Shown: positions 13,634-54,983 of the stretch, one piece after another | How positions within the stretch are numbered: the stretch's first letter is position 1 | Layout of the letters: every line of letters starts with the position of its first letter | NCBI GenBank assembly: GCA_037956075.1 | Contig: CP138327.1 | Location: 1,308,296 to 1,372,295, forward strand | DNA from: Catillopecten margaritatus gill symbiont | GTDB lineage: Bacteria > Pseudomonadota > Gammaproteobacteria > PS1 > Pseudothioglobaceae | Reading direction: 5' to 3' | DNA: 64,000 bases | Position numbers and translations under genes: made by a program | The notes under the pieces: generated by a model | Seen by the model: only the letters and a program-made list of their open reading frames with translations | The model's database searches: none | What the model was told of the DNA's origin: nothing

Positions 13634-13743
13634 TGCCATTCTGAGCGTTAGCCGAGAAATCTTATTTTCAACAAAAGGTTTCTCCACTTTGTTCGAAATG
13701 ACATAGTACCTCTCTGTTATTCTGAGTGTAGCCAAAAGGACCT
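13634..13743. repeat. degenerate copy of the TGTCAT-core palindromic element
   Basis: TGCCATTCTGAGCGTTAGCCGAGAAATCT ... GTTCGAAATGACA ... TGTTATTCTGAGTGTAGCCAAAAGGACCT. Confidence 0.6.
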
Positions 13744-13783
13744 CCCCCCATTCATATAAGATACCTTGTATAATTTACCACTT

Positions 13784-14431
13784 ATGTCAAAAAGAAACCC
13801 CAAACTCAAAGTCAGCGGTGCAGATGCCCAATCTTTTCTACAAGGACAATTGTCAAACGATATTGACAAGATTGTTGAGGGTGCGTGGCAATTGAATGCT
13901 TATTGTCAGCATCAAGGACGCATTATTGCGTTGATGTGGGTGGGTAAGCAGGGTGATGATTTCTTGTTGGATTTTGCGATGGATTTATATGAGGTGGTAA
14001 AAAATCGGTTGACGATGTTTGCTTTAAATGCAGACATTATTTTTACCCAAATTGAGGCGCAAACAGCGTCTATTGAAGCAGCACAGGTTACTTTAGCAAC
14101 GACTGAAAAATTCATCCCACAGGATTTAAATCTTGACATTGATGAAGTGGGTGTGAGTTTTACCAAAGGTTGTTACCCTGGGCAAGAGGTGGTAGCACGG
14201 GTGCATTATCTCGGCAAGCCGAAGAAAAGATTGTATCAATTTACCTGTGATTTTGAAGTGTTGCCACTTGATAAGATAACCTTGGAAGATGAGACAAAAA
14301 CAGTCGGAACGGTGCTAAATCAGGTAAAATCTTGTTTCTTTGCAGTTGTGAAAATTGCTGAAAAAGAACAAGATTTTTTTATTAACAACAAGCCAATTAA
14401 ATTGCTTGAATTGGCTAATTTTTCAGATTAA
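13784..14431 (+). CDS. ygfZ: folate-binding tRNA-modification protein YgfZ
   Basis: KGCYPGQE signature. Start taken at ATG 13784 (the track ORF begins at TTG 13766). Confidence 0.8.
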   Translation: MSKRNPKLKVSGADAQSFLQGQLSNDIDKIVEGAWQLNAYCQHQGRIIALMWVGKQGDDFLLDFAMDLYEVVKNRLTMFALNADIIFTQIEAQTASIEAAQVTLATTEKFIPQDLNLDIDEVGVSFTKGCYPGQEVVARVHYLGKPKKRLYQFTCDFEVLPLDKITLEDETKTVGTVLNQVKSCFFAVVKIAEKEQDFFINNKPIKLLELANFSD

Positions 14432-14436
14432 ATACA

Positions 14437-15789
14437 ATGAAACTAACTAAAATATTGGCATTCTTGCCATTGCTTCTCCCTGCTTTTGCTTTTGCCAGCG
14501 GTAATACAGAAAAAACCCTTGATTTAACTAGCCATTGGGTTGGTTATATGGCATTAGTCTTATTTGTTGCGGCTTATATTTTGGCAATGGTGGAAGAATT
14601 TACCTGCTTTAGAAAGTCTAAGCCAGTCATTTTAAGTGCGGGACTTATTTGGGCAATGGCTGCTTGGGTGTATGCTTCACAAGGAATGCCACATACGGCT
14701 GAAGTGGCACTACGACACAACCTATTAGAATATTCTGAATTATTCTTATTCTTATTGGTGGCAATGACCTATATCGAAGTAATGAAGGAGCGCCAAGTTT
14801 TTGATGCATTAAAAGTTTGGTTGACCAACAAAGGACTGTCATTCAGGCAACTATTCTGGCTAACGGGCTTTTTGGCGTTTTTCATCTCACCTGTTGCTGA
14901 TAATTTAACCACCGCCTTGATTATGGGTGCAGTGGTGATGGCGATTGGTGGTAATAATGTGCGTTTTGTTTCTATTGCCTTTGTTAATATCGTTGTTGCT
15001 GCTAATGCAGGCGGTGCGTTCAGTCCATTTGGTGATATTACTACACTGATGGTTTGGCAAAAAGGCATTATTGAAACTTCTGAATTTCTCACCCTATTTG
15101 TCCCATCGTTGATTAATTTTGTTGTGCCAGCAGCGATTATGCATTTTGCAATTAAGAACGAATCGATTAAGATGGAACAGGAAGTGGTTTCTATTAAATT
15201 GGGTGGAATGTGGGTTGTATTCTTGTTTATTGTAACGATTGCTACAGCGGTAGCCTTTCATAACTTCTTACATTTACCGCCAGTGATGGGGATGATGACA
15301 GGGCTTAGTTATTTGATGATTGCATCGTTCTTTATTAATAAGCATCAAAAGGGTGAATTTGATATTTTCCAAAAAGTATCTAGGGCGGAATGGGATACTT
15401 TATTGTTCTTTTTTGGTGTGATTATGAGTGTTGGCGGCTTAGGTTTTATGGGCTATTTAGCGCTTGCTTCCGAGTCAATGTATTCTATACTCGGGCACAC
15501 TAACGCTAATATTTTGGTTGGTGTTTTATCGGCGATTGTTGATAACATTCCGGTGATGTTTGCAGTATTAACAATGAACCCTGAAATGAGCCAAGGTCAA
15601 TGGTTGTTAGTCACCTTGACTGCAGGTGTGGGCGGTAGTTTACTGTCTGTTGGTTCTGCGGCAGGTGTGGCGTTAATGGGGCAGTCAAAAGGGCTTTACA
15701 CCTTTGTATCGCACCTAAAATGGACACCTGTTATTGCCCTCGGATATGCCGCCAGTATTTATACGCACATTCTAATTAATGGCGTCTAA
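14437..15789 (+). CDS. nhaD: Na+/H+ antiporter NhaD family
   Basis: 450 aa polytopic protein. ANAGGAFSPFGDITTLMVWQ is typical of NhaD. Confidence 0.75.
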   Translation: MKLTKILAFLPLLLPAFAFASGNTEKTLDLTSHWVGYMALVLFVAAYILAMVEEFTCFRKSKPVILSAGLIWAMAAWVYASQGMPHTAEVALRHNLLEYSELFLFLLVAMTYIEVMKERQVFDALKVWLTNKGLSFRQLFWLTGFLAFFISPVADNLTTALIMGAVVMAIGGNNVRFVSIAFVNIVVAANAGGAFSPFGDITTLMVWQKGIIETSEFLTLFVPSLINFVVPAAIMHFAIKNESIKMEQEVVSIKLGGMWVVFLFIVTIATAVAFHNFLHLPPVMGMMTGLSYLMIASFFINKHQKGEFDIFQKVSRAEWDTLLFFFGVIMSVGGLGFMGYLALASESMYSILGHTNANILVGVLSAIVDNIPVMFAVLTMNPEMSQGQWLLVTLTAGVGGSLLSVGSAAGVALMGQSKGLYTFVSHLKWTPVIALGYAASIYTHILINGV

Positions 15790-16378
15790 TCTGTTTGTTG
15801 ATATTGGCAGTAGCACCGTTAGTTGGGAGATTGATGGCAATTACCAAAGTATTCATATTGAAGATTTTCAAAGTGACGCAATACCTCCACACCAAGCCAG
15901 CACCATTGCCTGTGTGGCAAATCACCAACTGATTGAGCATTTTAGCAACCCAACGATTGTCCAACCTAAACCTCTTGCAGGCATCGTTTTTGGTTATAAT
16001 TTGGAACAATTGGGTATTGATCGGTTTTTAGGATTGGTAGCAGGGTTTGAAAAATATCCTGAACACTCTTTTATGGTGATTGATGTTGGTACTTTTGTTA
16101 CCATTGACAGCGTGCAAAATGGCAAGCATATTGATGGTGGTATTGCCCCTGGTTTGTATCAATTACAAGCGGGCAAAAAATTTACTGGTAACGACAGTCA
16201 AAAGTCGTGGAAAATGGGGACTGAAAATATGTTGCGTGATTATATTGATAGGCGCACTGCTAATTTTAAGGGTAAGATTTTGGTTACTGGTGGTGGGCAG
16301 GAAATAACCCATATAGAGCAAGGTGAATATCACCAAAATTTAGTCATAGAAGGATTGAGAATAATAAATGAACAATAG
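15779..16378 (+). CDS. coaX: type III pantothenate kinase
   Basis: LFVDIGSST ... GIDRFLGLVAG ... VIDVGTFVTID ... GGIAPG motifs. Short (199 aa). Confidence 0.7.
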   Translation: MASNLFVDIGSSTVSWEIDGNYQSIHIEDFQSDAIPPHQASTIACVANHQLIEHFSNPTIVQPKPLAGIVFGYNLEQLGIDRFLGLVAGFEKYPEHSFMVIDVGTFVTIDSVQNGKHIDGGIAPGLYQLQAGKKFTGNDSQKSWKMGTENMLRDYIDRRTANFKGKILVTGGGQEITHIEQGEYHQNLVIEGLRIINEQ

Positions 16379-17564
16379 AGTTTTATCAGGAATGAGACCC
16401 ACAGGGCAACTGCACCTTGGGCATTATCATGGTGTTTTGAAGAATTGGTTGGCGTTACAAAATGAGCAAGACTCATACTTTTTTGTAGCAGATTGGCACG
16501 CTTTTACCACGCATTATTCAGACAAAATTGACCTTGCAGGCAATGTGTCAGAAATGGTGGTGGATTGGTTGGCGGCGGGGATTAATCCAAATACTTCGAC
16601 GATTTTTGTGCAATCAAAAGTACCAGAACACGCAGAATTACATTTATTATTATCGATGACCACGCCCCTGTCTTGGTTGGAACGAGTGCCGTCTTACAAA
16701 GACCAGCAAGAAAAACTGAAAACTAAGGACTTGGGTACTTATGGTTTTTTGGGTTATCCGTTATTACAAAGTGCCGATATTTTAATTTATAAAGCAGGTT
16801 TGGTGCCAGTGGGCGAAGACCAAGTGGCACATATTGAACTCACTCGTGAAGTTGCTAGGCGCTTTAATTATGTGTATGGGCGAGAAGCTGATTTTGAAGA
16901 AAAAGCAGAAATAGCCATTACTAGAATGGGTAAAAAGCAAGCCAAATCTTATCGCGCTTTGCGTAAAGCCTATCAAGAAACAGGCGATTTAGAGGCGTTG
17001 GATAAAGCACAGGCTCTACTCAAGGAGCAACAAAATATTACCTTAGGTGATAGAGAAAGATTGTTGGGTTATATTGAAGGTGTGGGTAGAATTATCTTGC
17101 CTGAGCCAGAATCTTTACTCACAAAGGCCTCAAAAATGCCAGGTTTAGATGGGCAAAAAATGAGTAAATCTTACGGCAACACCATTTCTTTGCGCGACAC
17201 GGCAGAAGAGATTGAAACCAAAGTTAAACGCATGCCAACTGACCCAGCCCGAGTGAAATTAACTGACGCAGGCGACCCAAAAAAATGTCCAGTGTGGCAA
17301 CTGCACGAAGTCTATTCCGATGCACAAACTTGTGACTGGGTGAAGGACGGTTGCACTAATGCAAAAATGGGCTGTATCGAATGTAAGCAACCCGTGATTG
17401 ACGCTATTAAAGAAGAATTAACCCCAATGCAAGAACGCATTGCCAAATATCAAGCCGACCCCGAACTCATCAAGCAAATCATCCACGAAGGCTCTGAAAA
17501 AGCCCGTAGTGTTGCCAAAGAAACCATGGCAGAAGTGCGTGAAGCGATGGGGATTACTTACTAA
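16368..17564 (+). CDS. trpS: tryptophan--tRNA ligase
   Basis: HLGHYHG (HIGH) and KMSKS motifs. 398 aa with an internal insertion. Confidence 0.95.
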   Translation: MNNRVLSGMRPTGQLHLGHYHGVLKNWLALQNEQDSYFFVADWHAFTTHYSDKIDLAGNVSEMVVDWLAAGINPNTSTIFVQSKVPEHAELHLLLSMTTPLSWLERVPSYKDQQEKLKTKDLGTYGFLGYPLLQSADILIYKAGLVPVGEDQVAHIELTREVARRFNYVYGREADFEEKAEIAITRMGKKQAKSYRALRKAYQETGDLEALDKAQALLKEQQNITLGDRERLLGYIEGVGRIILPEPESLLTKASKMPGLDGQKMSKSYGNTISLRDTAEEIETKVKRMPTDPARVKLTDAGDPKKCPVWQLHEVYSDAQTCDWVKDGCTNAKMGCIECKQPVIDAIKEELTPMQERIAKYQADPELIKQIIHEGSEKARSVAKETMAEVREAMGITY

Positions 17565-17635
17565 TTAAAAGTTAGTTGTGTTATAATGCTTACATAATAA
17601 ACAGGAGAATAGTATGAAACCACAAGAAGGATCAA

Positions 17636-18106
17636 ATGGACTTGAGTAATCAAGAAATTTTTCAAATTATACAAACAGCCACTTTAATAGTGGCTGTTTT
17701 CGTTGCATGGTGTTCAATCAATAAACAAAGGGATACCACCAAAAAAGACAAAACTATCTCTTTATTAATGAAGGACTTAGAAGATGATTTTTTAAAAAGT
17801 GGTATGCAAACCTTATTAAAAGTTCATAATAATGAAGATGACGATGTAGCAATTTATGCTAATTCTGCCCATAAGAATGATGAGAATGCTATCGCCATTA
17901 GAAATTTGTTAAATTATTATGAAAATATTTCTGTTGGTGTAGGCAGTAACATTTATGATGTTGAAATGATCAAAAAATCGCAAAAAACTATGATTTTGTC
18001 AATTTACAAGCAATCCAAGCCTTTTATTACACGCCTTAGAGAACAAAATAAGAATCCCAATCTTTATATTGAATTCGAACGATTTGTTGAGATTCTTAAT
18101 GGATAG
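17636..18106 (+). CDS. hypothetical membrane-anchored protein, DUF4760-like
   Basis: 156 aa. N-terminal TM helix. LLNYYENISVGVGSNIYDVEMI ... YIEFERFVEIL recalls DUF4760 (from memory). ATGGATAG overlap with the rluB start. Confidence 0.45.
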   Translation: MDLSNQEIFQIIQTATLIVAVFVAWCSINKQRDTTKKDKTISLLMKDLEDDFLKSGMQTLLKVHNNEDDDVAIYANSAHKNDENAIAIRNLLNYYENISVGVGSNIYDVEMIKKSQKTMILSIYKQSKPFITRLREQNKNPNLYIEFERFVEILNG

Positions 18107-18836
18107 ACTACAAAAACTCATCGCTACAGCAGGATACGGCTCTCGTCGTTGGGCAGAGCGCTTGATTGAGCAAGGGCGTATCGAGGTTAACAATAAAACG
18201 GCAAGCATTGGCGACAAGGCCGAGATAACCGATACGGTTAAAATTGATGGGCGGAAAATTGACTTAGGGCGTTATAAGGAAGAAGAAACTAAGGTGTTGA
18301 TTTTGAATAAACAGGCGGGTGTTATTTGCTCTAACAAGGATGAAGAAGGGCGTAAAAGTGTTTATGAATTATTGCCAAAAGAGTCTCGCTGGGTGATGGT
18401 TGGGCGTTTGGATTTGAATACATCGGGCTTATTGCTGTTTACCAATAATGGCGATTTAGCCAATAAATTAATGCACCCGAGCTCTGAAATTGATAGAGAA
18501 TATGCAGTTCGTGTACTTGGACAAGTAGAAAATGAAGACTTGAAACAACTCACAACTGGCGTTAAATTAGAAGATGGTTTCGCTAAATTTTCTCGTGTTA
18601 CCGCTGGCGGTGGAACAGGTGCAAATAGTTGGTACAAGGTAGTCCTCAGAGAAGGTCGCAAACGAGAAGTGCGTCGTTTATGGGAGGCATTAGGCTTTAA
18701 AGTCTCACGCTTAATCCGCATTCGTTTCGGTGAAATCCGCCTACCAGACAAACTCAAAGCCAATCAGTACGAATACCTAAAACCTGGACAAGTGAAATTA
18801 CTATTAGACGCCACTCAAAAGCGTAACCCCATGTAA
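18099..18836 (+). CDS. rluB: 23S rRNA pseudouridine2605 synthase
   Basis: MDRLQKLIATAGYGSRRWAE (S4 domain) and GRLDLNTSGLLLFTN. Stop codon lies inside a partial REP (ATGTAAGAAG). Confidence 0.9.
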   Translation: MDRLQKLIATAGYGSRRWAERLIEQGRIEVNNKTASIGDKAEITDTVKIDGRKIDLGRYKEEETKVLILNKQAGVICSNKDEEGRKSVYELLPKESRWVMVGRLDLNTSGLLLFTNNGDLANKLMHPSSEIDREYAVRVLGQVENEDLKQLTTGVKLEDGFAKFSRVTAGGGTGANSWYKVVLREGRKREVRRLWEALGFKVSRLIRIRFGEIRLPDKLKANQYEYLKPGQVKLLLDATQKRNPM

Positions 18837-18840
18837 GAAG

Positions 18841-18863
18841 TGTAAGAGGTTCAACCTCTTACA
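18841..18863. repeat. REP palindrome (central C)
   Basis: TGTAAGAGGTTCAACCTCTTACA, preceded by the half-copy TGTAAGAAG. Confidence 0.9.
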
Positions 18864-19008
18864 AAGAAAGATGCAAATGAGAAGTGTTCCACTCGTGGGA
18901 GGCATTAAGCTTCAAAGTCTCACGCTTAATTCACATTCGTTTCGGTGAAATATACCCACCGGACAAACCCAAAGTCAATCAATACGAACACCTAAAAACC
19001 CCAGTTCT
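18864..19008 (+). pseudogene. diverged fossil duplicate of the rluB 3' end
   Basis: Collinear with 18649-18786. For example GGGAGGCATTAAGCTTCAAAGTCTCACGCTTAATTCACATTCGTTTCGGTGAAAT versus GGGAGGCATTAGGCTTTAAAGTCTCACGCTTAATCCGCATTCGTTTCGGTGAAAT. Contains CGA->TGA. Confidence 0.75.
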
Positions 19009-19031
19009 TTGTAAGAGGTTGAACCTCTTAC
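19009..19031. repeat. REP palindrome (central G, inverted)
   Basis: TGTAAGAGGTTGAACCTCTTACA. Confidence 0.9.
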
Positions 19032-19128
19032 AACCTCTTGCAAATTGGTGAAAGGTGTCGTTTGATTTGGAGGGTTAAATTGAAGTGGTATCAAGTATAA
19101 TAACGCTTTTAGTATTTTTTAAGTATTT

Positions 19129-22616: not shown

Positions 22617-22647
22617 AAATTCTTACCAACAACAAATTAAACCCCTC

Positions 22648-24317: not shown

Positions 24318-24322
24318 GCACC

Positions 24323-24607: not shown

Positions 24608-24608
24608 T

Positions 24609-29675: not shown

Positions 29676-29758
29676 AGATTCCTCGGCTAGTGCTCGGAAT
29701 GACAGGTTTTTTTTTCTGGCACCCCATTCTGTCATCCCGAGCGCTAGCCGAGGGATCT
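29676..29758. repeat. TGTCAT-core element with arms in outward (tail-to-tail) arrangement
   Basis: AGATTCCTCGGCTAGTGCTCGGAATGACA ... TGTCATCCCGAGCGCTAGCCGAGGGATCT. Confidence 0.75.
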
Positions 29759-39676: not shown

Positions 39677-39824
39677 TTTTTTCTCCTTTTTGTTAATGAT
39701 GAACCTTATATAAGGACACAAATAACAATTTCAAGGGATAAAGAAAAAATATTTTTTTAGATTAACCTAGTATTAGAATGCCTTGCATCCAAGGGCTAAA
39801 TAGCCCCTTAATCAACTTATATAT

Positions 39825-40006
39825 TGTTATTCCGAGTATATATTGTCATCTCAAGTATATTATTATCATACCAAATATATATTGCCACCCCAATTCACAT
39901 ACTATCATCTCAACTTATATATTGTCATCCCGAGCGTAGCCGAGGGATCTTTTATGGGAGCAAGATCCCTCGACTACGCTCGGGATGACAGGATTACGGG
40001 ATGACA
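39825..40006. repeat. TGTCAT-core element with a ~20-24-bp left-hand array
   Basis: About five decayed units (TATATATTGTYATYYC...), then the core TGTCATCCCGAGCGTAGCCGAGGGATCT-loop-AGATCCCTCGACTACGCTCGGGATGACA, then GGATTACGGGATGACA. Confidence 0.8.
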
Positions 40007-40055
40007 AAAAAAAGATAACAAGAGAGTAACAGAAAGGAACGCCCCTTATATTAGA

Positions 40056-44877: not shown

Positions 44878-44897
44878 ATAGGACAACAGGAGCGTGT

Positions 44898-45461
44898 ATG
44901 GTTATTGGTAATATTTTGATTGTTGACGATGAAAGAATTAATTCCGAGACAATGAAAGACACTTTAGAGGATGTGAATTATCATGTTACTTTGGCAGACG
45001 GTGCTGCCGAGGCAAAAACTATTGTTAAAACGCAAACTTTTGATTTAATTATGATGGATGTGTGGATGCCTGGGCAGGATGGTATGAGCTTATTAGAAGA
45101 ATGGATGAATGCAGGTTTTTCAATGCCTGTGGTAATGATGTCAGGGCATGCAGAGCACCAAGATGTGGTCAGAGCCATCAAACTGGGTGCTGTGGATTTT
45201 CTTAAAAAACCACTGCATGACATTTTACCCTTGGTGCGTAAACTACTTTCTGAACAAGCCAGTGACAACGATGGACAGAAAGCAGAGGGCATTAATTTTG
45301 ATTTACCTCTTAAAACCGTTAGAAATATTTTTGAAAAGCAATATTTTGACCATCATCTTAATGAAAATAACCATAATATTGCTAAAGTGGCAGATATTGC
45401 AAAACTAGAAAGAACCACTTTATATAGAAAACTTAAAGACTTAGGGATAGACAAAAAATGA
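44898..45461 (+). CDS. response regulator: receiver + Fis-type HTH, no AAA+ domain
   Basis: ILIVDDE...DLIMMDVWMPG...KP receiver. C-terminal NIAKVADIAKLERTTLYRKLKDLGI HTH. Confidence 0.8.
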   Translation: MVIGNILIVDDERINSETMKDTLEDVNYHVTLADGAAEAKTIVKTQTFDLIMMDVWMPGQDGMSLLEEWMNAGFSMPVVMMSGHAEHQDVVRAIKLGAVDFLKKPLHDILPLVRKLLSEQASDNDGQKAEGINFDLPLKTVRNIFEKQYFDHHLNENNHNIAKVADIAKLERTTLYRKLKDLGIDKK

Positions 45462-46822
45462 AGATTTTAATCTTAGGCGCAGGACAAGTTGGTGCATCAT
45501 TGGCAAAGTATCTCAGTAAAGATGATGAAAATGAAATCACCATTGTTGATAAGGACAGCTCAAGCCTATCAAGCCTTGCACGACATTTAGACATTAAAAC
45601 TATTTGTGGCTATGGCTCGTATCCAAATATCTTGGAAGAAGCACAAGTTAGGGAAACGGATATTATTATTGCCGTTACTCGGTCTGATGAAGGTAATATC
45701 TTAGCCTGTCAAATTGCACATACCTTGTATAAAGTAGGCAAGAAGATTGCTCGTATTCGCACCTCTGAATACCTAAATCACGATGGATTTGAAGCCATTA
45801 CCCCAATTGACTTTGTCATTACCCCCGAAGGGTTGGTGACCAAATTTATTAAGCGTATGGTGGAAGAGCCTGGTGCCGAGCAGGTATTTGAATTTGAAAA
45901 TGGTTTAGTGCAATTGGTAGAAACCAAAGCCCATGCAGGCACACCGATTGTCGGACACCCCATCAAAGATTTACACAAACATTTGCCAAAAACGCAGATG
46001 CGCATTGTCAGCATTTATCGCAATGGACAAGCAATTCCTGCCTATGGCGATACCATGATTAAAAATGGCGACCGTGTCTATTTTGTGACTAAAAAAGACA
46101 GTATTTCACAGGTATTAAAAGAATTCAGACGCCTTGATAGACCATATAAGAATATTGTGATCGCTGGCGGTGGTTTAATTGGGCTTAATCTCGCTAAATT
46201 CTTAGAAAAAGAACACAGAGTCCATGTTATTGAACTTAATGAACAGCGCACCGAAGAAATTGCTGACAAATTAAAAAACACCGTTGTTTTACATGGTAGC
46301 GCCTCTGATGAAGATTTACTTAAAGAAGAAGGCATTGAAAATACTGATTTATTCTTAGCCCTCACTGACTCCGATGAAATCAATGTACTTTCCTCCATCC
46401 TCGCAAAACGACTCGGCGCACACAAAACCATCGCCTTAGTAAAACGCAACATCTACGAAGATTTAGCCACCCAAAACGACTATGTCGACATCGTCATCTC
46501 ACCCGACCAAATCACCACCTCCGGCATCCTTTCACACATTCGCAGAGGCGATACAATGATGGTGCATTCTCTACGCAAAGGTAGGGCAGAAGCCATAGAA
46601 GTCATTGTTCATGGCGACAAAGACCACTCAGATGTTGTCGGCAAATCCATCGAACAAATTGACTTACCCAAAGGCGTTGTCATCGGCTCAATTGTTCGTG
46701 GCGAAGAAGTCATCATGGCATCCAGAACCTTAGTCATCCAAGAATTTGACCATGTAGTCCTAGTATTAAGCGACATCACCAAAGTCCACCAAGTCGAAGA
46801 ATTATTTGAAGGATATTTCTAA
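45458..46822 (+). CDS. trkA: Trk K+ uptake system NAD-binding subunit
   Basis: 454 aa with two GxGxxG Rossmann repeats (ILGAGQVG, IAGGGLIG). Confidence 0.9.
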   Translation: MKILILGAGQVGASLAKYLSKDDENEITIVDKDSSSLSSLARHLDIKTICGYGSYPNILEEAQVRETDIIIAVTRSDEGNILACQIAHTLYKVGKKIARIRTSEYLNHDGFEAITPIDFVITPEGLVTKFIKRMVEEPGAEQVFEFENGLVQLVETKAHAGTPIVGHPIKDLHKHLPKTQMRIVSIYRNGQAIPAYGDTMIKNGDRVYFVTKKDSISQVLKEFRRLDRPYKNIVIAGGGLIGLNLAKFLEKEHRVHVIELNEQRTEEIADKLKNTVVLHGSASDEDLLKEEGIENTDLFLALTDSDEINVLSSILAKRLGAHKTIALVKRNIYEDLATQNDYVDIVISPDQITTSGILSHIRRGDTMMVHSLRKGRAEAIEVIVHGDKDHSDVVGKSIEQIDLPKGVVIGSIVRGEEVIMASRTLVIQEFDHVVLVLSDITKVHQVEELFEGYF

Positions 46823-46863
46823 TGTAAGAGGTTCAACCCATGTAAGAGGTTCAACCTCTTACA
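46823..46863. repeat. REP: an 18-bp partial copy followed by a full copy
   Basis: TGTAAGAGGTTCAACCCA + TGTAAGAGGTTCAACCTCTTACA, directly after the trkA stop codon. Confidence 0.9.
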
Positions 46864-46892
46864 TTAAGAAGGTTGTCCCACCCCCTGTCATT

Positions 46893-47093
46893 TGTCATTC
46901 CACTCCCTTTACCCCTTTGTCATTCCACTCCCTTTACCCCTTTGTCATTCCACTCCCTTTACCCCTTTGTCATTCTGTCGCCCCCCCTTTGTCATTCCGA
47001 GCGCTAGCCGAGGAATCTTGTTAACCCAAATGAGATCCCTCGGCTGACGATCGGGATGACAATAAAAAAAAGGTAATAGTGCTCGGAATGACA
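46893..47093. repeat. TGTCAT-core element with a 3 x 25-bp left array
   Basis: TGTCATTCCACTCCCTTTACCCCTT x3 (46893-46967), a 22-bp variant, then the core 46990-47059, then an extra GTGCTCGGAATGACA. Confidence 0.85.
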
Positions 47094-47322
47094 AAAAAGC
47101 AATATCCCAGAGTAACAAACAAAGACAACTCATACTATTCATAAACAACATTAAAACAATAACAAAAATACCACACCCCATCAAAAAAAAGAATTTAAAA
47201 GCACCTACCAAACCCCTAAAAAATCATTAAACTAGCATCCATTATCATCAAGTTCAGCATCAAAACCATATAGCTAATGAACATTGCCATTAATCGCACA
47301 TCATTAATTACCAGCAATTACT

Positions 47323-48771: not shown

Positions 48772-49152
48772 CGCAAGTGTTGTATTTCTTTTCATTCTAA
48801 ATACCCCTCTCGTAACCTTGTCCTTCATACATAAGATTTATACAATAACAGCACTGTTTTAATTCTATGTTTAAAAGTTAACATCAAACTTTTTTTATAA
48901 GATAACCATATACAACGCACCTATTCAAGGCTTTTAACATTTTTTTATTATCTGTTGTTGCTCTAGTTGGCGCCCTAACATTGTTTTTCTCCTAAAAGCC
49001 AGTCACAGGAAGAAAAAAAAGTTTTTAGACTGGGTAGGGTGTTAATATAAAATATCTTGTTATTCTTAAATTTTTAATATTAAACTTGTATTAATGTATT
49101 TGATATTAAATTATATTGGGTAGTTAAAGTGTAATATTTGCTTAATTTTTTT

Positions 49153-50330
49153 TGTCATTCCATCCCCCTCTGTCATTCCATCCCCCTCTGTCATTCCAAC
49201 CTTCCTCTGTCATTCCACCTTCCTCTGTCATTCCACCTTCCTCTGTCATTCCGAGCGCTAGCCGAGGAATCTTGTCAGGTAAAACGAGATCCTTCGACTA
49301 GCGCTCAGGATGACAGTAGGGCAGGTTGTTCAGGATGACAGTAGGGCAGGTTGTTCAGGATGACAGTAGGGCAGGTTGTTCAGGATGACAGTAGGGCAGG
49401 TTGCTCAGGATGACACTCTCCTGTCATTCCAAAATCATCCTCCATTGTCATTCTAAACACCATCCCCAAAACAAAATCATCCTCCATTGTCATTCTAAAC
49501 ACCATCCCCAAAACAAAATCATCCTCCATTGTCATTCTAAACACCATCCCCAAAACAAAATCATCCTCCATTGTCATTCTAAACACCATCCCCAAAACAA
49601 AATCATCCTCCATTGTCATTCTAAACACCATCCCCAAAACAAAATCATCCTCCATTGTCATTCTAAACACCATCCCCAAAACAAAACCACCCTCCATTGT
49701 CATTCCGAGCGCTAGCCGAGGAATCTCGTATCACAAACAAAAGATCCTTCGGCTACGCTCAGGATGACAGTAGGGCAGGTTGCTCAGGATGACACTCTCC
49801 TGTCATTCCAAAATCATCCTCCATTGTCATTCTAAACACCATTCCCAAAACAAAATCATCCTCCATTGTCATTCTAAACACCATTCCCAAAACAAAACCA
49901 CCCTCCATTGTCATTCCGAGCGCTAGCCGAGGAATCTCGTATCACAAACAAAAGATCCTTCGGCTACGCTCAGGATGACAGTAGGGCAGGTTGCTCAGGA
50001 TGACACTCTCCTGTCATTCCAAAATCATCCTCCATTGTCATTCTAAACACCATCCCCAAAACAAAATCATCCTCCATTGTCATTCTAAACACCATCCCCA
50101 AAACAAAATCATCCTCCATTGTCATTCTAAACACCATCCCCAAAACAAAATCATCCTCCATTGTCATTCCGAGCGCTAGCCGAGGAATCTCGTATCACAA
50201 ACAAAAGATCCTTCGGCTACGCTCAGGATGACAGTAGGGCGGGTTGTTCAGGATGACAGTAGGGCAGGTTGTTCAGGATGACAAAAGAAGCAACACTCAG
50301 AATGACAAAAAAATCAACACCAAAACGACA
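49153..50330. repeat. hierarchical TGTCAT-core repeat complex: four hairpin cores with 18/19-, 25- and 42-bp arrays
   Basis: Left arms of the four cores start at 49244, 49698, 49909 and 50162. Five 18-19-bp units lie at 49153-49243. 25-bp units lie at 49316-49415, 49770-49794, 49981-50005 and 50234-50283. 42-bp units occur x6 (49446-49697), x2 (49825-49908) and x3 (50036-50161). Confidence 0.95.
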
Positions 50331-50486
50331 AAATAACATACTTTCATCAATTACTAAATAAGTGTTTATTTAACTTTTTTAACACCCGTGATGGTTTTAT
50401 ATTGACATCAAAGGCTTTGCAATACATCGCAATAAATCACCACAGATTCTGGAATAAAAGAAAAGGCATAACAGGGGGGTTTTACA

Positions 50487-50536
50487 TTTTTTTAATATTT
50501 TTTTAATATTTTTTTTCACATTTTTTACATTTTTTT
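50487..50536. promoter_or_regulatory. five phased T-tracts (probable intrinsically bent DNA)
   Basis: T6-T8 runs start at 50487, 50498, 50509, 50521 and 50530 (9-12 bp period). They lie about 250 bp upstream of the 50786 gene. Confidence 0.4.
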
Positions 50537-50785
50537 ATCACAATATAAGTTATTGAATTTAAAGATAAAGCAGCATATTTTTGTGTAAATAAAACTCCAG
50601 TCATGAATAATAAAGTTGATAAATAACTTTACATTGGCTTTTGTTTACTATAAAAAGCGCACTATGAGATATATTCACAGACAAAGGAAAGGAGGTTTGT
50701 AAAGCAATTGAAAGAGTGTGATCAGATTAAAGTTAATAAATAACCTGATATTATTTCTTTTACTTACTTTTACAAGTATGCAATT

Positions 50786-51547
50786 ATGAAAGCAGATTTT
50801 TTAAACAGTTCGCCCAAGTTCTTATCGCCATTGATACATATGGCGTTAGAGTTGGGCGTCAATTACAAAGAGTTTGACTGTTTAATCAGACAGGCGTTTG
50901 TGGACGAAGTAAAGGTTATCCTTGAAAAGAAAAACAAGAAACCAACTGATGCTTCTATTAGTATTGCAAGTGGACTCCCTAGAAGTTGCGTTAAAGAGTT
51001 ACAAGGAAAAAGTAACAAAGGACAAAAGAATTGGATCAGTATGCCGGCCAGAGTTATTGCCGCATGGGTTGCAAAAGGATTGGGTGATACGATTAATTAT
51101 TCATCAAAAAATGGAAAGATGGATTTCGTTTCTTTGAGTGAAAGTGTTACCGCTGAAAAATCCCCAAGAACAATTCTTAATGAATTGGTGCGTTTAGGGC
51201 AGGTTCAATTTATTGATGACCAAGTGACTTTAACATTATTTGAGCACACTTCTAATGAAAATAATTACGAAGCATTGCTTAATGATTTCACAGACAATCT
51301 TGCTTGGCATACTTTAGCAGGGTCTCATTTATTAATGAATGATCCAAAGCCAGCCTTATTAGAACAAGCAGTTAAAGTTGATGGTATTTTTGAAGAAAGT
51401 GCACAAGATTTATCCAGATTAGGAAAAGAGTATTGGAAAGACATTTCGAAAAAGATGATTGATAAAGCAACACCAATATCTGAAAAAGAAGAAAAAGAAG
51501 GCGGTAAACACCAACTGACATTTGGTGTTTATTGTTACTATGATTAA
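50786..51547 (+). CDS. hypothetical protein with possible HTH segments
   Basis: 253 aa with no family recognised with confidence. TDASISIASGLPRSCVKEL and PRTILNELVRLGQVQF look HTH/wHTH-like. Confidence 0.5.
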   Translation: MKADFLNSSPKFLSPLIHMALELGVNYKEFDCLIRQAFVDEVKVILEKKNKKPTDASISIASGLPRSCVKELQGKSNKGQKNWISMPARVIAAWVAKGLGDTINYSSKNGKMDFVSLSESVTAEKSPRTILNELVRLGQVQFIDDQVTLTLFEHTSNENNYEALLNDFTDNLAWHTLAGSHLLMNDPKPALLEQAVKVDGIFEESAQDLSRLGKEYWKDISKKMIDKATPISEKEEKEGGKHQLTFGVYCYYD

Positions 51548-51594
51548 GAACTGAATTAAAGAAATAAGAATAAAGTTAAACAAGAATAAAATTA

Positions 51595-52342
51595 GGGTCT
51601 TAACTAGTTAAGCGGCTCTTTTCTAAAATTATCAAGTAAGATTTTATACATATCTTGCTTACGATTATTAAATCTAAATTCACATTCTTTAAGATGATAT
51701 TTAAACATTTTTTTATTCATTCCTTTAAATTTTACTAGCCTAATTTTAGCATAACCCCAAAAAGATTCGATGCCGTTAATATGAGAATTTCCTCTGGCAA
51801 ATTTATTCTTACCATGATGAACACGATAATGCTTTTTATAGCCAAAATCTACTAAGCCATTATATCCACGCCATCCGTCAGAATTAATAATACTATCTGT
51901 TGATGTTTTGTCTTTTATTATGCTGTGAAGGGTTATTCTATCGCACTTTTCTATAATTTGAGTATAAACCTTATCACCTCGTTTCAATAAGCCAAATACG
52001 ATTATCTTGCCCCTGGCACCTCGGCCGCGTTTCCCACGGACGCATCGAGCACCAAAGTAGCTTTCATCAACTTCAATCTGCCCCACTAGTGGGGCAGATT
52101 GAAGTTGATATTGGTCTGATAATTCAAAAATTCTTATCCTTACAAGTGTCAAAATTTTATTAACAGTGTTTAAATTTAGATTGGTTAATTGTGCTATTTG
52201 AGTAGCGCTTAAATCCACTGAAAAATATTTAATAACTTCTCTAAATTTTGCCTCTGAAAGTCTTGAACGATTGTAATACTTATTTTTCCTTTTCATAGCT
52301 AGTATTTTAAGCAATTAAAAATTGCTTAACTAGTTAAGACCC
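51595..52342 (-). mobile_element. IS1595-family insertion sequence
   Basis: Perfect 19-bp terminal inverted repeats GGGTCTTAACTAGTTAAGC (51595-51613) / GCTTAACTAGTTAAGACCC (52324-52342) enclosing one transposase ORF. Confidence 0.85.
51604..52314 (-). CDS. IS1595-family (ISXO2-like DDE) transposase
   Basis: IEVDESYFGARCVRGKRGRGARGKIIVFGLLKRGDKVYTQII is the characteristic ISXO2-like block. 236 aa. Confidence 0.8.
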   Translation of the reverse strand: MLKILAMKRKNKYYNRSRLSEAKFREVIKYFSVDLSATQIAQLTNLNLNTVNKILTLVRIRIFELSDQYQLQSAPLVGQIEVDESYFGARCVRGKRGRGARGKIIVFGLLKRGDKVYTQIIEKCDRITLHSIIKDKTSTDSIINSDGWRGYNGLVDFGYKKHYRVHHGKNKFARGNSHINGIESFWGYAKIRLVKFKGMNKKMFKYHLKECEFRFNNRKQDMYKILLDNFRKEPLN

Positions 52343-52995
52343 AAAATGAATATCGTCAAGGTCTAAGTAAGCTCAGGCGCTGGAATAAAGCCATTAAATA
52401 CAAGGTTAATTATTTTAAATTCCCACCCCCTTTTGAAGTGGGTAAAAGTCTGGTTGATGATCACTTTAAAGACCTTTCTGATATCACTACTCTGCCAATC
52501 TCTCAAAGTAGTGATAAAAGACCTAATTTTAGAATCATACTGACTAAGCGAGTACATTACAAAGAAGCTATTGAGACATATACCAATGCCAAAGTAAAAA
52601 ATCTTGATACCGAATCTAATTGCCTGTTGTCTATTAAGCATAAGCGCTATGCATTATCTGATGCTACTGTTATTATTCCTGTTGACCATGCGATGCGTTA
52701 CGGTTTATTGCCTGCCTGTGTTGTGGAAGAACTCACTCAGGCGATGGGACTACCAAATGACTCTGATTGGGTCAACCCTTCTGTCGCTAATGACAAAAGT
52801 GTTTTGGATTTATTAACAGGACTGGATTACTTAATGTTAAGAATACTTTATGATAAGCGTCTTGAAATTGGTATGAGTGTTGAACAAAGTGAACCTATAG
52901 TTGATGAAATATTACTAGATTTTGAAGAACAAGGCCTTATCAAAAATTCCATACTTGAAGCTAGAAAATTACGCCTTAGTGCTCAACTTGAATAG
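52330..52995 (+). pseudogene. 5'-truncated gene (DUF2927-like?) abutting the IS1595 end
   Basis: The frame is open from inside the IS terminal repeat (52330) through the track ORF 52438-52995. EELTQAMGLPNDS resembles the DUF2927 motif (from memory). No signal peptide or credible start. Confidence 0.4.
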
Positions 52996-53045
52996 CGTTT
53001 GGTTGCTTTTTTTGGTAATTTAATTGTTCTGAATACTCTCGATTT

Positions 53046-53088
53046 TGTCATTCCAAATACCCTTTAGTTTTTGTCATTCCGAGCGATA
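53046..53088. repeat. left half of a TGTCAT core (plus one array unit) interrupted by IS1182
   Basis: TGTCATTCCAAATACCCTTTAGTTTT + TGTCATTCCGAGCGATA, then the IS begins. Confidence 0.85.
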
Positions 53089-54855
53089 GAGACTGTAAAA
53101 AAACCAATCCACCATCAAAATTAGTACAAAAAAAATCTAAAAAAGGCATAATATATTAAAATAACTATTTGATTTATATTAAAATAGTAGCCATGAACAA
53201 TACCTATAAAACTGGAAAAAACAGACAACAAACTCTATTATTTCCACCAAGCATAGATGAGATGGTTTCTAAAGATAATCCAGTTCGAGGTATTGACAGT
53301 TATGTCGATATATTAGATATTAGATATTTTTGATTTAGGATTTAACAATAAAACAAGCACTGCTGCTGATGGAGCTTCAGCCTTTCATCCAGCATTATTA
53401 TTAAAAATATACATTTACGGTTACACCAACAAAATTAGAAGTTCAAGAGCCCTAGAAAAAGAAATTAAACGCAATGTAGAGATGATGTGGTTATGTAAAG
53501 GGCTAACACCGAGTCATACTACTATTGCTAATTTTAGAAAAAATAATGCTAAAGCCTTAAAAAATGTTTTTAAAGAGTTTGTGCTATTGTGTAGGAACCT
53601 AGACTTAATCGGTAATGAGTTAGTTGCACTTGATGGGGCTTTTTTAAGAGCAAATGCTTCTAAAAATCAATGACTGATGCATTCAACAATTGTCAAAGAT
53701 TTAGATAAAATCACGCTTAAAATACAGGATTATCTCAGCGAGATAGACACCATAATCAACAAAATAATAAAAGTGATTTAACCATTAATGCTACTGAGTT
53801 AATTGCTAAAACCAACCAACTTAAAGACAAAAAGTTGCAACTAGAACAAGAGAAGGCATTCCTAGAACAGCACAACAAAAAACAATATAACAAAACCGAT
53901 CCAGATGCTTCTTTAATGCAAAAACCAGCCCATAATCTAATGGCATATAATAGTCAAATTGTAGTTGATGATAAATACAAACTTATTGTTGCAACAGATA
54001 TTACTAGTTGTGGCACTGATATCAATCAACTACACAAAATGGCAAAACAAACAAAAGCCATATTAGCAACAGACAGCCTTACCATTGTTGCCGATACTGG
54101 TTATGATAATCATCAACAAATTAAACAATGCTACGATGACGGCATTACCCCAATTATCCCTGGTCGCAATCTGGTAAAAGTCCAACAAAACAAAGGTAAA
54201 TTTAGTAGAGATAAGTTTGTTTATAATGCCGACATTGATAATTATATTTGCCCAAATAATAAAATATTAGCCAAGCAAAATCAACCTCAAACCAAACCCA
54301 ATGGCAAAATTAACTTTGGCTATGCTACCCGTAGAAAAGATTGTAAGCAGTGTCCTTTAAAATCCCAATGTTTACCTGATAAAACGCTAATGAAACGCAT
54401 CTATCGTTGGGAACATCAAGTTATGCTTGATAAACATTATGACAAAATGCAGACAAAAGAGGCAAAAACTACGATTAAACGCAGAGGTAGTATTGTTGAA
54501 CATCCTTTTGGCACTATTAAAAGAGGGTTAGGCTGGGATCGTTATTTGGTTAGAGGTAAAGAAAAAGTATCAGGTGAAAATGCCTTGATTATGTTTAGTT
54601 ATAATTTTAAGAGAGTAATAAATATTCTAGGAGTAACTGGGTTCATTGCAATGACTTTAGCGCTTGAAACAGGGAATATTGATACTTTTTTAGTTAATTT
54701 TTGGCAGAATTTTATTTTTAGTGGGTTATTTATTGTTGTTTTACTAAATATTGCCAATTCTTTGAATATTAAGCAAAATAGACGATATTTGTTTGGTAAA
54801 TATCTAAAAATTGTTATTTTTTGTGATTAGGTGTGGTTGGTTTTTTTACAGTCTC
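53089..54855 (+). mobile_element. IS1182-family insertion sequence (decayed)
   Basis: Terminal inverted repeats GAGACTGTAAAAAAACCAATCCAC / GTGGTTGGTTTTTTTACAGTCTC. ATA on both flanks. Confidence 0.8.
53193..54830 (+). pseudogene. IS1182-family transposase pseudogene
   Basis: N-terminus MNNTYKTGKNRQQTLLFPPSIDEMVSKDNPVRGIDSYVD, AFHPALLLKIYIYGYTNKIRSSRALE, IVADTGY. Broken by a 7-bp tandem duplication TAGATAT (53314-53327), an in-frame TGA (53671-53673) and a further frameshift near 53760-53770. Confidence 0.8.
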
Positions 54856-54983
54856 ATAGCCGAGGAATCTCGTATTCCCAACACAAGATCCTTCGGCTAC
54901 GCTCAGGATGACATTGAGGGCTGTCATCTCGACCCCCCTGTCATCTCGACCCCCCTGTCATCTCGACCGAAGCGGAGAGATCT
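54856..54983. repeat. right half of the interrupted core plus a second 17-bp array and variant arm
   Basis: ATAGCCGAGGAATCT-loop-AGATCCTTCGGCTACGCTCAGGATGACA, then TGTCATCTCGACCCCCC x2, then TGTCATCTCGACCGAAGCGGAGAGATCT. Confidence 0.85.

What the first reader, a model, noticed from the sequence alone, without database searches (positions are those of the whole stretch)
13634..54983. The same TGTCAT hairpin core recurs at six intergenic loci, always with arm-tip-only arrays
Core copies or derivatives occur at six loci: 13634-13743 (decayed), 29676-29758 (arms tail-to-tail), 39825-40006, 46893-47093, 49153-50330, and 53046-53088 plus 54856-54983. All lie between genes, mostly at gene 3' ends.

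The array unit sequence differs at each locus. Examples are TGTCATTCCACTCCCTTTACCCCTT x3 at 46.9 kb, TATATATTGTCATCTCAAG-type units at 39.8 kb, and TGTCATCTCGACCCCCC x2 at 54.9 kb. The TGTCATYC head is conserved throughout. Right flanks share a decaying ...ATGACAAAAAA...GAGTAACA tail (40001-40035, 47088-47120). Locus-specific unit bodies with a conserved head argue for local, repeated re-initiation at the arm tip rather than spread of one fixed array. Six loci in 64 kb is a high density.
Basis: seen in the sequence. Interest (0 to 1): 0.7.

Follow-up and report, generated by a model that had tools for sequence, protein, structure and literature searches.

The report
Ssn-type hairpin repeats with stutter arrays
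The recurring TGTCAT hairpin belongs to a known, pan-bacterial repeat family tied to small GIY-YIG single-strand DNA nucleases (Ssn), here as a sequence subtype the published motif misses; its one apparently undescribed feature is short arrays of truncated repeat tips on the side where that nuclease cuts.

Summary
TGTCATYC occurs 57 times against 4.3 expected, and about 22 copies of a 27-29-nt unit lie at six intergenic loci. Tip-only arrays occur at four of the six loci, not all.

The "core hairpin" is a head-to-head dimer of a smaller unit: YGTC tag, then AT-NNN, GAGCG(Y)TAGYCGA, N'N'N'-AT, then C. The unit's own stem covaries strongly. It occurs in nearly all bacterial phyla.

This architecture is already described as CGTC-tagged REPs (Di Nocera 2013) and as Ssn-related motifs, or SRM (Chenal 2025). 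SRMs flank ssn genes, and Ssn cuts single-stranded DNA a few nucleotides upstream of the tag.

The window's subtype does not match the published SRM search string. Even so, it piles up at the borders of the same GIY-YIG gene family in 80 metagenomic loci.

Relatives of the source genome (SUP05 clade) have trkA abutting trkH and no units, so these are lineage-specific insertions.

I found no description of the tip-only arrays. They sit on the tag side in other phyla too (45 versus 8 of 270 units). They are most likely local by-products of breaks or stalls at that side.

This is a new variant of a known kind, of moderate interest.

The parts
13634..13743 (.). Locus 1. Three decayed units: 13634-13662 (+), 13676-13704 (-), 13715-13743 (+). 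No tip array.
   Evidence: Edit distances of 4, 9 and 9 to the consensus; sequence read.
29676..29758 (.). Locus 2. Tail-to-tail (TT) dimer with the tags facing inward: unit 29676-29704 (-) and unit 29730-29758 (+), separated by a 25-nt G-poor spacer. No tip array. Lies between convergent selO and an M50 peptidase gene.
   Evidence: pair I1; folds at -28.9 kcal/mol, z -9.8.
39818..39922 (+). Locus 3, left array. Five to six diverged head-only units with a 19-20 nt period (TGTYATYYCRAG plus an AT-rich body).
   Evidence: 71-77% matches.
39923..39990 (.). Locus 3. Head-to-head (HH) dimer, both units of ATCCC subtype: 39923-39950 (+) and 39963-39990 (-).
   Evidence: pair I2, 97% complementary; -33.3 kcal/mol, z -12.6.
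39991..40035 (-). Locus 3, right side. Tips that decay outward: GGGATGACA, GATAACA, GAGTAACA.
46886..46989 (+). Locus 4, left array. TGTCAT-T, then 3 x 25 nt (TGTCATTCCACTCCCTTTACCCCTT), then one 22-nt unit (TGTCATTC-TGTC-GCCCCCCCTT).
46990..47061 (.). Locus 4. HH heterodimer: unit 46990-47018 (+, ATTCC subtype) and unit 47033-47061 (-, ATCCC subtype).
47062..47120 (-). Locus 4, right tips. The 17-nt tip at 47077-47093 has the GAGCAC subtype, identical to the head of the unit at 29677. A decayed tip CAGAGTAACA follows.
   Evidence: (pair I7).
46823..47322 (.). The whole trkA-trkH spacer, which is an insertion relative to SUP05-clade relatives.
   Evidence: In L131 and L137 the two genes are separated by only 2-13 nt; L135 carries a different insert at the same spot (a gene with a PF05635 hit). 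None of L131-L138 contains a unit.
49153..50333 (.). Locus 5. Four HH dimers: 49244-49315, 49698-49769, 49909-49980, 50162-50233. Each has tag-side arrays. To the left are 18-, 24- and 42-nt units headed TGTCATTC. To the right are 25-nt units ending YTCAGGATGACA. The region contains a 211-bp higher-order repeat (x2.5, 98% identity).
53046..53088 (+). Locus 6. One head-only unit (53046-53071) followed by the 5' part of a unit (53072-53088) that is cut by an insertion sequence (IS).
53089..54855 (+). IS5/IS1182-type insertion sequence lying in the loop of the unit. It has 17-nt inverted repeats (GAGACTGTAAAAAAACC) and a 3-bp target duplication ATA (53086-53088 and 54856-54858). The transposase ORF is 53835-54830.
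   Evidence: (PF01609, PF13751).
54859..54914 (.). Locus 6. The 3' part of the interrupted unit (54859-54870) and its HH partner unit 54886-54914 (-).
54922..54983 (+). Locus 6. 2 x 17-nt head-only units (TGTCATCTCGACC plus CCCC), then a single full unit of ATCTC subtype (54956-54983).
   Evidence: (100% matches).

Best explanation
The loci are clusters of a small single-strand-DNA hairpin repeat. The family is described as CGTC/TGTC-tagged REPs and, more recently, as Ssn-related motifs (SRM).

Each unit has four parts:
- an unpaired YGTC tag;
- a stem that opens A-T, T-A and continues with three freely covarying pairs;
- a conserved apex, GAGCG(Y)TAGYCGA;
- an essential C after the stem.

Two units placed head to head, tags outward, form the 'core hairpin'.

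In other lineages this same unit subtype brackets genes for about 100-aa GIY-YIG nucleases of the Ssn family. Characterised members of that family bind the hairpin only as ssDNA and cut a few nucleotides upstream of the tag.

In this SUP05-clade genome the units are lineage-specific insertions into intergenic DNA, including the trkA-trkH junction.

The tip-only arrays are local by-products of repeated breakage or polymerase stalling on the tag side of a unit. Repair by short-range template switching or copying leaves a truncated head (8-17 nt) plus a short G-poor filler. Slippage and unequal recombination then amplify these blocks.

What is shown: family identity, covariation, the GIY-YIG linkage, the insertion status, and the tag-side polarity of the arrays.

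What is inferred: that Ssn cleavage, rather than the hairpin alone, drives the arrays, and that this genome encodes a cognate Ssn.
For: Family identity
- 232 of 243 loosely defined units have fully complementary triplets, spread over more than 11 pair types.
- On alignment A2, 96.3% of cells are paired, 67 cells carry changes on both sides, and 0 of 500 shuffles reach this. Sliding the partner drops pairing to 52% or less.
- Tag, A-T opening pairs, tail and predominance of HH dimers match the CGTC REP description.
- Tag GTC and the C after the stem are invariant in A2. They correspond to the positions Chenal et al. found critical for cutting and binding.

GIY-YIG linkage
- In L008 the gene sits between two inverted units.
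- By a rough peptide-motif count, 64 of 120 homologue ORFs run into a unit at their 3' end.
- DNA of L123 and L128 shows units on both sides of the gene.
- In 80 metagenomic loci chosen with the nuclease domain only, '+' units pile up at -200..0 (31 units) and '-' units at 0..+200 (21 units). Background is about 0-1 per 100 bp.
- Members of the same protein family are flanked by canonical NTS-type motifs in L172, L173, L198 and L209.
- Invariant Y6, Y17 and E64 in alignment A1 have the same spacing as the catalytic residues mutated in SsnA.

Insertion status
-.

Arrays
- 45 of 270 units have head-only copies within 150 nt on the tag side, against 8 of 270 on the tail side.
- Examples occur in Dehalococcoidia, Acidobacteria, Bacteroidales, Kiritimatiellae and metagenomes. 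One involves a canonical NTS-type unit (L067).
- Truncation points fall at 8-16 nt.
- The published Ssn cut site lies on the same side.
Against: - No ssn or other GIY-YIG gene lies in the 64-kb window (tblastn). The rest of the source genome could not be searched, so the units here may be orphans.
- The published SRM search string matches none of the window's units and 0 of 305 units of this subtype.
- Ssn cuts upstream of the tag, whereas the array heads are truncated inside the ascending arm. Array edges start with a head, so the filler is not simply duplicated flank. A plain nick-and-duplicate model therefore does not fit exactly.
- A second, unrelated palindrome family in the window (GTAAGAGGTTNAACCTCTTAC) also shows tip duplications. 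This points to a nuclease-independent hairpin effect.
- GIY-YIG enzymes hydrolyse DNA and are not known to perform strand transfer, so how the units spread remains unexplained.
Confidence: 0.72

Rival explanations
1. The arrays are ordinary replication slippage at a stable hairpin or cruciform, with no nuclease involved. A polymerase entering the dimer from outside stalls in the ascending arm. The nascent end then realigns on nearby pyrimidine microhomology and re-copies the tip.
For: - The dimers fold very stably as ssDNA (-22 to -33 kcal/mol, z -7 to -12.6).
- Arrays lie on the outer side of both arms.
- Truncation points vary within the ascending arm.
- The unrelated GTAAGAGGTT palindrome family in the same window also has tip duplications.
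- Heads end in YCC next to C-rich filler, which offers microhomology.
Against: - Single units that are not part of a stable dimer also carry arrays (54922-54983; L104 and L116).
- The array edges show that the filler is not duplicated flank.
- The tip at 47077-47093 has a different subtype from its neighbour.
- The two papers read here on REP families and on Ssn motifs do not describe such tip arrays, although REP hairpins have been surveyed widely.
Confidence: 0.3
2. The core plus its arrays is one composite miniature transposon (MITE- or REPIN-like) that moves as a block. On this view the arrays are inherited, not made locally.
For: - Loci 3 and 4 share the same decayed outer tip GAGTAACA after an A-run.
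- A 211-bp block (dimer plus arrays) is tandemly repeated at 98% identity.
- The NTS-ssn-NTS layout resembles an insertion sequence.
Against: - Bodies, periods (17, 18, 19-20, 25 and 42 nt) and array lengths all differ between loci.
- Apart from the tips themselves, the flanks beyond the core share no alignable sequence.
- No target-site duplication could be recognised.
- Array heads usually carry the subtype of the adjacent unit.
Confidence: 0.12
3. The units and their C-rich, G-poor arrays are selected regulatory RNA or DNA elements. Candidate roles are Rho-utilisation-like tracts, mRNA stabilisers, terminators or protein-binding arrays. On this view they are not selfish or accidental DNA.
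For: - All loci are intergenic, and several lie at gene 3' ends.
- Array bodies contain only 2% G in unit orientation.
- The unit stem is under selection.
Against: - The elements are absent from the orthologous sites of relatives.
- No T-run follows the hairpins in either transcription direction.
- There are no Rfam matches.
- SsnA does not act on RNA.
- Array sequences are not conserved between loci.
- In other genomes units even interrupt coding sequences (P0010, P0049 and P0056).
Confidence: 0.06

Closest known systems
Ssn-related motifs (SRM), including the Neisseria NTS, and their Ssn/SsnA GIY-YIG (cd10448) ssDNA nucleases (Chenal et al. 2025, Nat Commun, PMC11893778)
   Same: - A hairpin of about 28 nt with an unpaired HGTC tag, a stem opening A-T/T-A and a conserved C after the stem.
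- Occurs as inverted copies on both sides of a GIY-YIG gene of about 100 aa.
- Found across many phyla and enriched in symbionts.
- The conserved positions coincide with those needed for Ssn binding and cutting.
   Different: - The window's subtype has a 5-bp covarying stem, tandem G.A/A.G and a GAGCG..YCGA apex. It fails the published degenerate SRM string (0 of 305 units).
- No ssn gene lies in the window.
- The word 'tandem' does not occur in that paper's main text, so tag-side tip arrays appear not to be described there.
- Cleavage of this subtype has not been tested.
CGTC-tagged REP superfamily (Di Nocera, De Gregorio and Rocco 2013, PMC3733652), which includes Neisseria dRS3 and Rickettsia RPE-4/RPE-6
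   Same: - A terminal CGTC tag that is often TGTC.
- Complementary A and T as the first two stem positions.
- A short unpaired tail.
- Head-to-head dimers predominant and tail-to-tail dimers rare.
- Heterodimers with different stems.
- Occasional large clusters.
   Different: - Those families have perfect 8-9 bp stems with 4-5 nt loops. Here the stem has 5 Watson-Crick pairs, two G.A mismatches and one G:C pair, with a 5-7 nt apex.
- The 2013 paper found no dedicated enzyme. The GIY-YIG link was reported in 2025 and is reproduced here for this subtype.
REP/REPIN-RAYT systems and BIMEs (GTAG-tagged REPs with IS200/IS605-like Y1 transposases)
   Same: - A tagged hairpin unit.
- Inverted dimers that form long hairpins.
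- A single enzyme gene bracketed by the repeats.
- Intergenic clusters.
- Repeats that serve as insertion targets for insertion sequences. An IS5-like element sits in one unit here.
   Different: - The tag is YGTC, not GTAG.
- The associated enzyme is a hydrolytic GIY-YIG nuclease, not an HUH/Y1 transposase.
- The unit sequence is nearly identical across phyla, whereas REPs are lineage-specific.
Neisseria intergenic mosaic elements (NIMEs: dRS3 repeats alternating with RS blocks); the NIME layout is recalled from general knowledge, not from a paper read here
   Same: Arrays in which a conserved short repeat alternates with variable filler, located in intergenic DNA next to NTS/dRS3 units.
   Different: - NIMEs, as I recall them, alternate complete 20-bp dRS3 palindromes with 50-150 bp blocks.
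- Here the repeated piece is a truncated 8-17 nt tip with 4-33 nt of filler.

Membership tests
SRM / NTS-like motifs of the Ssn system | Unpaired HGTC tag 5' of a hairpin whose stem opens W-Y (A, T), with a conserved C immediately 3' of the stem | tested here: met
   G2, T3, C4, A5, T6 and A25, T26, C27 are invariant in 58 distinct units. Position -1 is T in 70% and C in 22% of 260 units.
SRM / NTS-like motifs of the Ssn system | Match to the published degenerate search sequence HGTCWYN(0-2)YYVSBRHN(0-5)WNVSBRGN(0-2)RNCYNB | tested here: not met
   There are 0 hits in the window and 0 among 305 units of this subtype. NTS control sequences do match.
SRM / NTS-like motifs of the Ssn system | Motif copies flank ssn (small GIY-YIG) genes on the 5' and 3' sides | tested here: met
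   Met for this unit subtype in other genomes: L008, L123 and L128. Of 80 metagenomic loci, 41 carry units, 28 carry one upstream, 19 one downstream and 14 both, with sharp positional peaks. The same protein family also has members flanked by NTS-type motifs. This could not be tested in the source genome.
SRM / NTS-like motifs of the Ssn system | A cognate ssn gene is present in the same genome | not testable with these tools
   Only 64 kb of the genome is available, and it contains no GIY-YIG domain.
SRM / NTS-like motifs of the Ssn system | Bound and cut by Ssn as ssDNA only, a few nucleotides upstream of the tag | not testable with these tools
   This is a biochemical property, shown for four homologues by Chenal et al..
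CGTC-tagged REPs (Di Nocera 2013) | Terminal unpaired CGTC, TGTC or CCTC tag, with A and T as the first two paired stem positions | tested here: met
CGTC-tagged REPs (Di Nocera 2013) | 8-9 bp stem with a 4-5 nt loop | tested here: inconclusive
   There are 5 Watson-Crick pairs, then G.A and A.G, then one covarying G:C pair (8 of 58 units are C:G). That makes 8 stacked positions with a 5-7 nt apex.
CGTC-tagged REPs (Di Nocera 2013) | Predominantly head-to-head dimers with tags outward; tail-to-tail dimers rare | tested here: met
   The window has seven intact head-to-head dimers, one decayed pair at locus 1, one tail-to-tail dimer and a few single units.
REPIN/RAYT (GTAG REPs) | GTAG tag and an associated Y1 (HUH) transposase | tested here: not met
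   The tag is YGTC. The recurrently linked gene is a GIY-YIG nuclease. An all-against-all comparison of ORFs near 120 loci found no other recurrent gene family.
Classical MITE | Terminal inverted repeats plus a target-site duplication, derived from an insertion sequence that encodes a DDE transposase | tested here: inconclusive
   Inverted ends are present, but no target duplication could be recognised at clean dimers. The only empty-site comparison is with distant relatives.
CRISPR array | Constant repeats separated by unique spacers | tested here: not met
   The 'spacers' within an array are identical or nearly identical (93-100% matches). The Rfam CRISPR hits lie elsewhere, at 1809-1956.

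The most novel reading that the evidence does not exclude
The tag-side arrays of truncated tips are fossil records of Ssn action on the chromosome itself. Each unit would mark one cut or stall next to a hairpin, repaired by short-range or ectopic copying. If so, tip arrays are the way SRM clusters nucleate and grow. They would also give a sequence-only readout of in vivo activity, cut-site distance and specificity of Ssn nucleases in any genome. That bears on the still-open question of how these CGTC/SRM repeats proliferate without a transposase.
Probability: 0.3. Interest if true: 0.65.

Novelty: new variant of a known kind. Interest (0 to 1): 0.45.

Why it matters
Ssn nucleases were characterised only in 2025, and their role outside Neisseria is open. 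How their hairpin motifs multiply is also unknown.

This window contributes three things:
- A widespread motif subtype that the published search string misses, which implies that current SRM censuses are undercounts.
- A case in a SUP05-clade genome, probably a symbiont lineage, where the motifs have invaded housekeeping operon junctions.
- A polarity-specific scar, the tip-only arrays on the nuclease's cut side. The scar is seen across phyla and could be used to test whether Ssn acts on its own chromosome and drives growth of repeat clusters.

If the arrays turn out to be plain hairpin slippage, the finding reduces to an ordinary repeat family with unstable flanks.

Tried and rejected
- Rfam at gathering thresholds and at permissive E-values returned only tRNAs, CRISPR repeats and chance miRNA-like hairpin hits.
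- Literature searches by nucleotide strings and by repeat-encoded peptides returned nothing relevant. Searches for GIY-YIG with REPIN/RAYT, and for UPF0213/YhbQ, also found nothing. The relevant papers surfaced only through 'CGTC'.
- An all-against-all BLAST of ORFs within 400 nt of units in 120 genome loci found no recurrent gene. Most units are far from any ssn gene. The link became visible only when I started from the protein.
- My first GIY-YIG regex was too strict and found nothing.
- NCBIfam has no model for these proteins. PDB sequence search gave only weak matches, chiefly two uncharacterised UPF0213 proteins.
- The look-up of encoding contigs with the window's own TrkH returned only two short Logan contigs that break at the repeats and are 99.9-100% identical to the window. 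They give no information on strain variation.
- Considered and rejected: CRISPR-like arrays, integron attC sites, intrinsic terminators (no T-run follows the hairpins), and GTAG REP/RAYT elements.
- A simple model of a nick followed by strand displacement and flap ligation was examined. It does not fit the array edges, because arrays begin with a head and the filler is absent from the outer flank.

Full report
**1. The observation**

The window has 39% GC and carries housekeeping genes: dnaK, trkA, trkH, selO and a DinG-like helicase.

TGTCATYC occurs 57 times on both strands. Shuffles give 4.3 +/- 2.1, with a maximum of 10. A full-unit pattern with up to 3 mismatches gives 10 hits against 0 expected. 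All six loci are intergenic.

Tandem Repeats Finder confirms arrays at 39.8, 46.9, 49.2-50.3 and 54.9 kb. Their periods are 17, 18, 19-20, 25 and 42 nt. Locus 5 also contains a 211-bp higher-order repeat. Loci 1 and 2 have no arrays, so 'always' is too strong. The split copy at locus 6 is one unit interrupted by a 1767-bp IS5/IS1182-type insertion sequence (IS). That element has 17-nt inverted repeats and a 3-bp target duplication, ATA.

**2. Anatomy**

The 'core hairpin' is not the elementary element. It is a head-to-head dimer of a 27-29-nt unit:

Y-GTC-AT-NNN-GAGCG(Y)TAGYCGA-N'N'N'-AT-C-Y

The two arms of a dimer often carry different triplets. For example, ATTCC/GGAAT sits on the left and ATCCT/AGGAT on the right at loci 5 and 6. 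Each unit is therefore self-complementary even where the long hairpin has mismatches.

Array units are truncated heads followed by filler. The heads are 8-13 nt in the window. The filler is 4-33 nt and contains only 2% G in unit orientation. Arrays always lie on the tag side of a unit, and hence on the outer side of both arms.

The head usually has the subtype of the adjacent unit. One exception is the tip at 47077-47093. Its head equals that of the unit at 29677 and differs from its neighbour's.

**3. Distribution and structure**

The hits came from Firmicutes, Chloroflexi, Patescibacteria, Verrucomicrobia, Acidobacteria, Bacteroidetes, Planctomycetes, Gemmatimonadetes, Nitrospirae, Proteobacteria and other groups.

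A looser pattern leaves the triplets free. With it, 232 of 243 units have fully complementary triplets, spread over more than 11 pair types. Among the 75 units that do not fit the scan pattern, 69 are fully complementary.

On a 58-sequence alignment, 96.3% of cells are paired and 67 cells have changes on both sides. No shuffle out of 500 reaches this, and sliding the partner drops pairing to 52% or less. An inner G:C pair also covaries to C:G.

Single units fold weakly as naked DNA (-3 to -4.5 kcal/mol), whereas dimers fold at -22 to -33 kcal/mol. Conservation of the weak unit stem therefore suggests recognition by a protein.

**4. Link to a nuclease**

In locus L008 (Kiritimatiellae) a 131-aa GIY-YIG gene lies exactly between a forward and a reverse unit. 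By a rough peptide-motif count, 64 of its 120 homologues have ORFs that run into a unit at the 3' end. In many of these the stop codon is the TGA of ...ATGAC. The DNA of two further contexts shows units on both sides of the gene.

As an unbiased test, I aligned only the nuclease domain (alignment A1) and fetched 80 metagenomic loci with it.
- 41 loci carry units.
- Forward units pile up in the 200 nt before the domain (31 units).
- Reverse units pile up in the 200 nt after it (21 units).
- Background is about 0-1 per 100-bp bin.

Four further members of the same protein family are flanked by TGTCATTCCCGCGAAAGCGGGAATCCAG-type motifs.

**5. What is known**

Di Nocera et al. (2013) defined CGTC-tagged REPs. 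These have an unpaired CGTC or TGTC tag, stems that start with A and T, short tails, and mostly head-to-head dimers. The class includes Neisseria dRS3 and Rickettsia RPE-4/RPE-6. The authors reported no dedicated enzyme.

Chenal et al. (2025) reported the following:
- The Neisseria NTS (CGTCATTCCCGCGMAVGCGGGAATCYRG) and related 'Ssn-related motifs' flank ssnA, a 94-aa GIY-YIG protein of family cd10448.
- The C after the palindrome is critical for binding, and the three bases before the palindrome are critical for cutting.
- The system modulates natural transformation.
- The NTS-ssnA-NTS layout resembles an insertion sequence.

The window's unit shares this architecture and exactly those critical positions. 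Residues Y6, Y17 and E64 are invariant in A1, with the same spacing as the SsnA residues that were mutated.

The published SRM search string matches none of the window's units and 0 of 305 units of this subtype, while it does match NTS controls. I therefore file the element as a subtype of a known family, not as a new family. I found no mention of tip-only arrays, and the word 'tandem' does not occur in the main text of the 2025 paper.

**6. Source and insertion status**

TrkH is 85% identical to that of Candidatus Thiodubiliella endoseptemdiera and 77-84% identical to Thioglobus/Ruthia-type proteins. The source is therefore a member of the SUP05 clade.

In L131 and L137 trkA and trkH are separated by 2-13 nt, and L135 carries a different insert at that junction. 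None of the eight orthologous stretches (L131-L138; five of about 11 kb, three shorter) contains a unit. In the window the two genes are separated by 500 nt of repeat-rich DNA. The elements are thus insertions specific to this lineage.

No GIY-YIG domain is encoded in the window. I could not test whether the genome has an ssn gene.

**7. The arrays**

Head-only copies are a family-wide feature.
- 45 of 270 full units have at least one within 150 nt on the tag side, against 8 on the tail side. The chance expectation is below 1.
- Examples include (TGTCATCCTGAGCGTTCCTTTTC) x4 in L147, three TGTCATTCTGACC units (21 nt) in L177, arrays in L104, L068 and L116, and a canonical NTS-type array in L067.
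- Truncation points range from 8 to 16 nt and periods from 16 to 59 nt.
- The 10 nt upstream of units are generally G-depleted.

The arrays share their side with the Ssn cut site. This suggests they are scars of breaks or stalls there, repaired by local or ectopic copying and later amplified by slippage. The 211-bp repeat and the 93-100% identity of the arrays at loci 4 and 5 fit recent amplification. The diverged array at locus 3 and the outward-decaying tips fit growth next to the core.

Four points argue against a simple version of this model:
- Truncation lies inside the arm, not at the cut site.
- Arrays begin with a head, so the filler is not duplicated flank.
- An unrelated 21-bp palindrome family in the same window also shows tip duplications.
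- GIY-YIG enzymes hydrolyse DNA and are not known to transfer strands.

I put about 0.85 on the family assignment and about 0.4 on nuclease-driven origin of the arrays. Plain hairpin slippage gets about 0.3, and the rest goes to block transposition or selected function.

**8. Verdict**

Two things are new:
- a common motif subtype that the published search string misses;
- a polarity-specific array phenotype that is general across phyla and apparently undescribed.

Interest is moderate.

Noticed in passing
window 3642-3680, 7272-7292, 7803-7823, 7955-7975, 18833-18862, 19011-19041, 46822-46866: A second repeat family: a perfect 21-bp palindrome, GTAAGAGGTT[C/G]AACCTCTTAC, at seven sites (19 half-site matches against 2.9 expected). 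Several copies have partial tip duplications next to them, for example ATGTAAGAGGTTCAACC(C) x1.9 at 46822 and AACCTCTTAC-AACCTCTTGC at 19022.
   Followed up: partly
window 53089-54855: An IS5/IS1182-type insertion sequence (transposase ORF 53835-54830; PF01609 and PF13751) lies exactly in the apex of a repeat unit, with a 3-bp duplication ATA. This fits the known tendency of REP-like hairpins to be insertion targets.
   Followed up: yes
window 51604-52314 (-) and 52066-52109: An ORF for an IS1595/ISXO2-type transposase contains a perfect 44-bp palindrome (arms 52066-52087 and 52088-52109). Together with the IS5-like element and the repeat cluster, this makes 48.8-55 kb a zone rich in mobile elements.
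   Followed up: no
window 1809-1956 (-) and about 1190-1217 (-): Three CRISPR repeats of type DR4 (TTCACCACCACACAGGTGGCTTAGAAA) with two spacers, plus one solitary repeat about 600 nt away. The adjacent ORFs 2017-4795 are housekeeping genes (GST, RlmH, RsfS, NadD-like, MBL), so the window has no cas genes. This looks like an orphan mini-array.
   Followed up: partly
window 47120-47322: The 200 nt between the repeat cluster and the trkH start are A/C-rich and very G-poor. Nothing matching them lies between trkA and trkH in the relatives compared. Their origin is unknown; they may be old, fully decayed array material.
   Followed up: no
L004 6247-7141 and L040 (Dehalococcoidia chromosome OZ244885.1): Seven units alternate in orientation with a period of about 330 bp. 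This is a large tandem array of dimer-containing blocks, much longer-period than the window's arrays.
   Followed up: no
P0010, P0049, P0056 (GIY-YIG homologues): Repeat units appear inserted inside the nuclease genes themselves. In P0010...NLNR-PSFRAMSRNL-NDPRD... replaces LVYYEQY. P0049 and P0056 are truncated into unit-encoded peptides. The repeats therefore also disrupt their presumed cognate gene.
   Followed up: no
window 5198-5249: A hairpin with 24-nt arms at 96% complementarity lies directly after the second tRNA-Glu gene. It may be a terminator or an attachment-site remnant.
   Followed up: no
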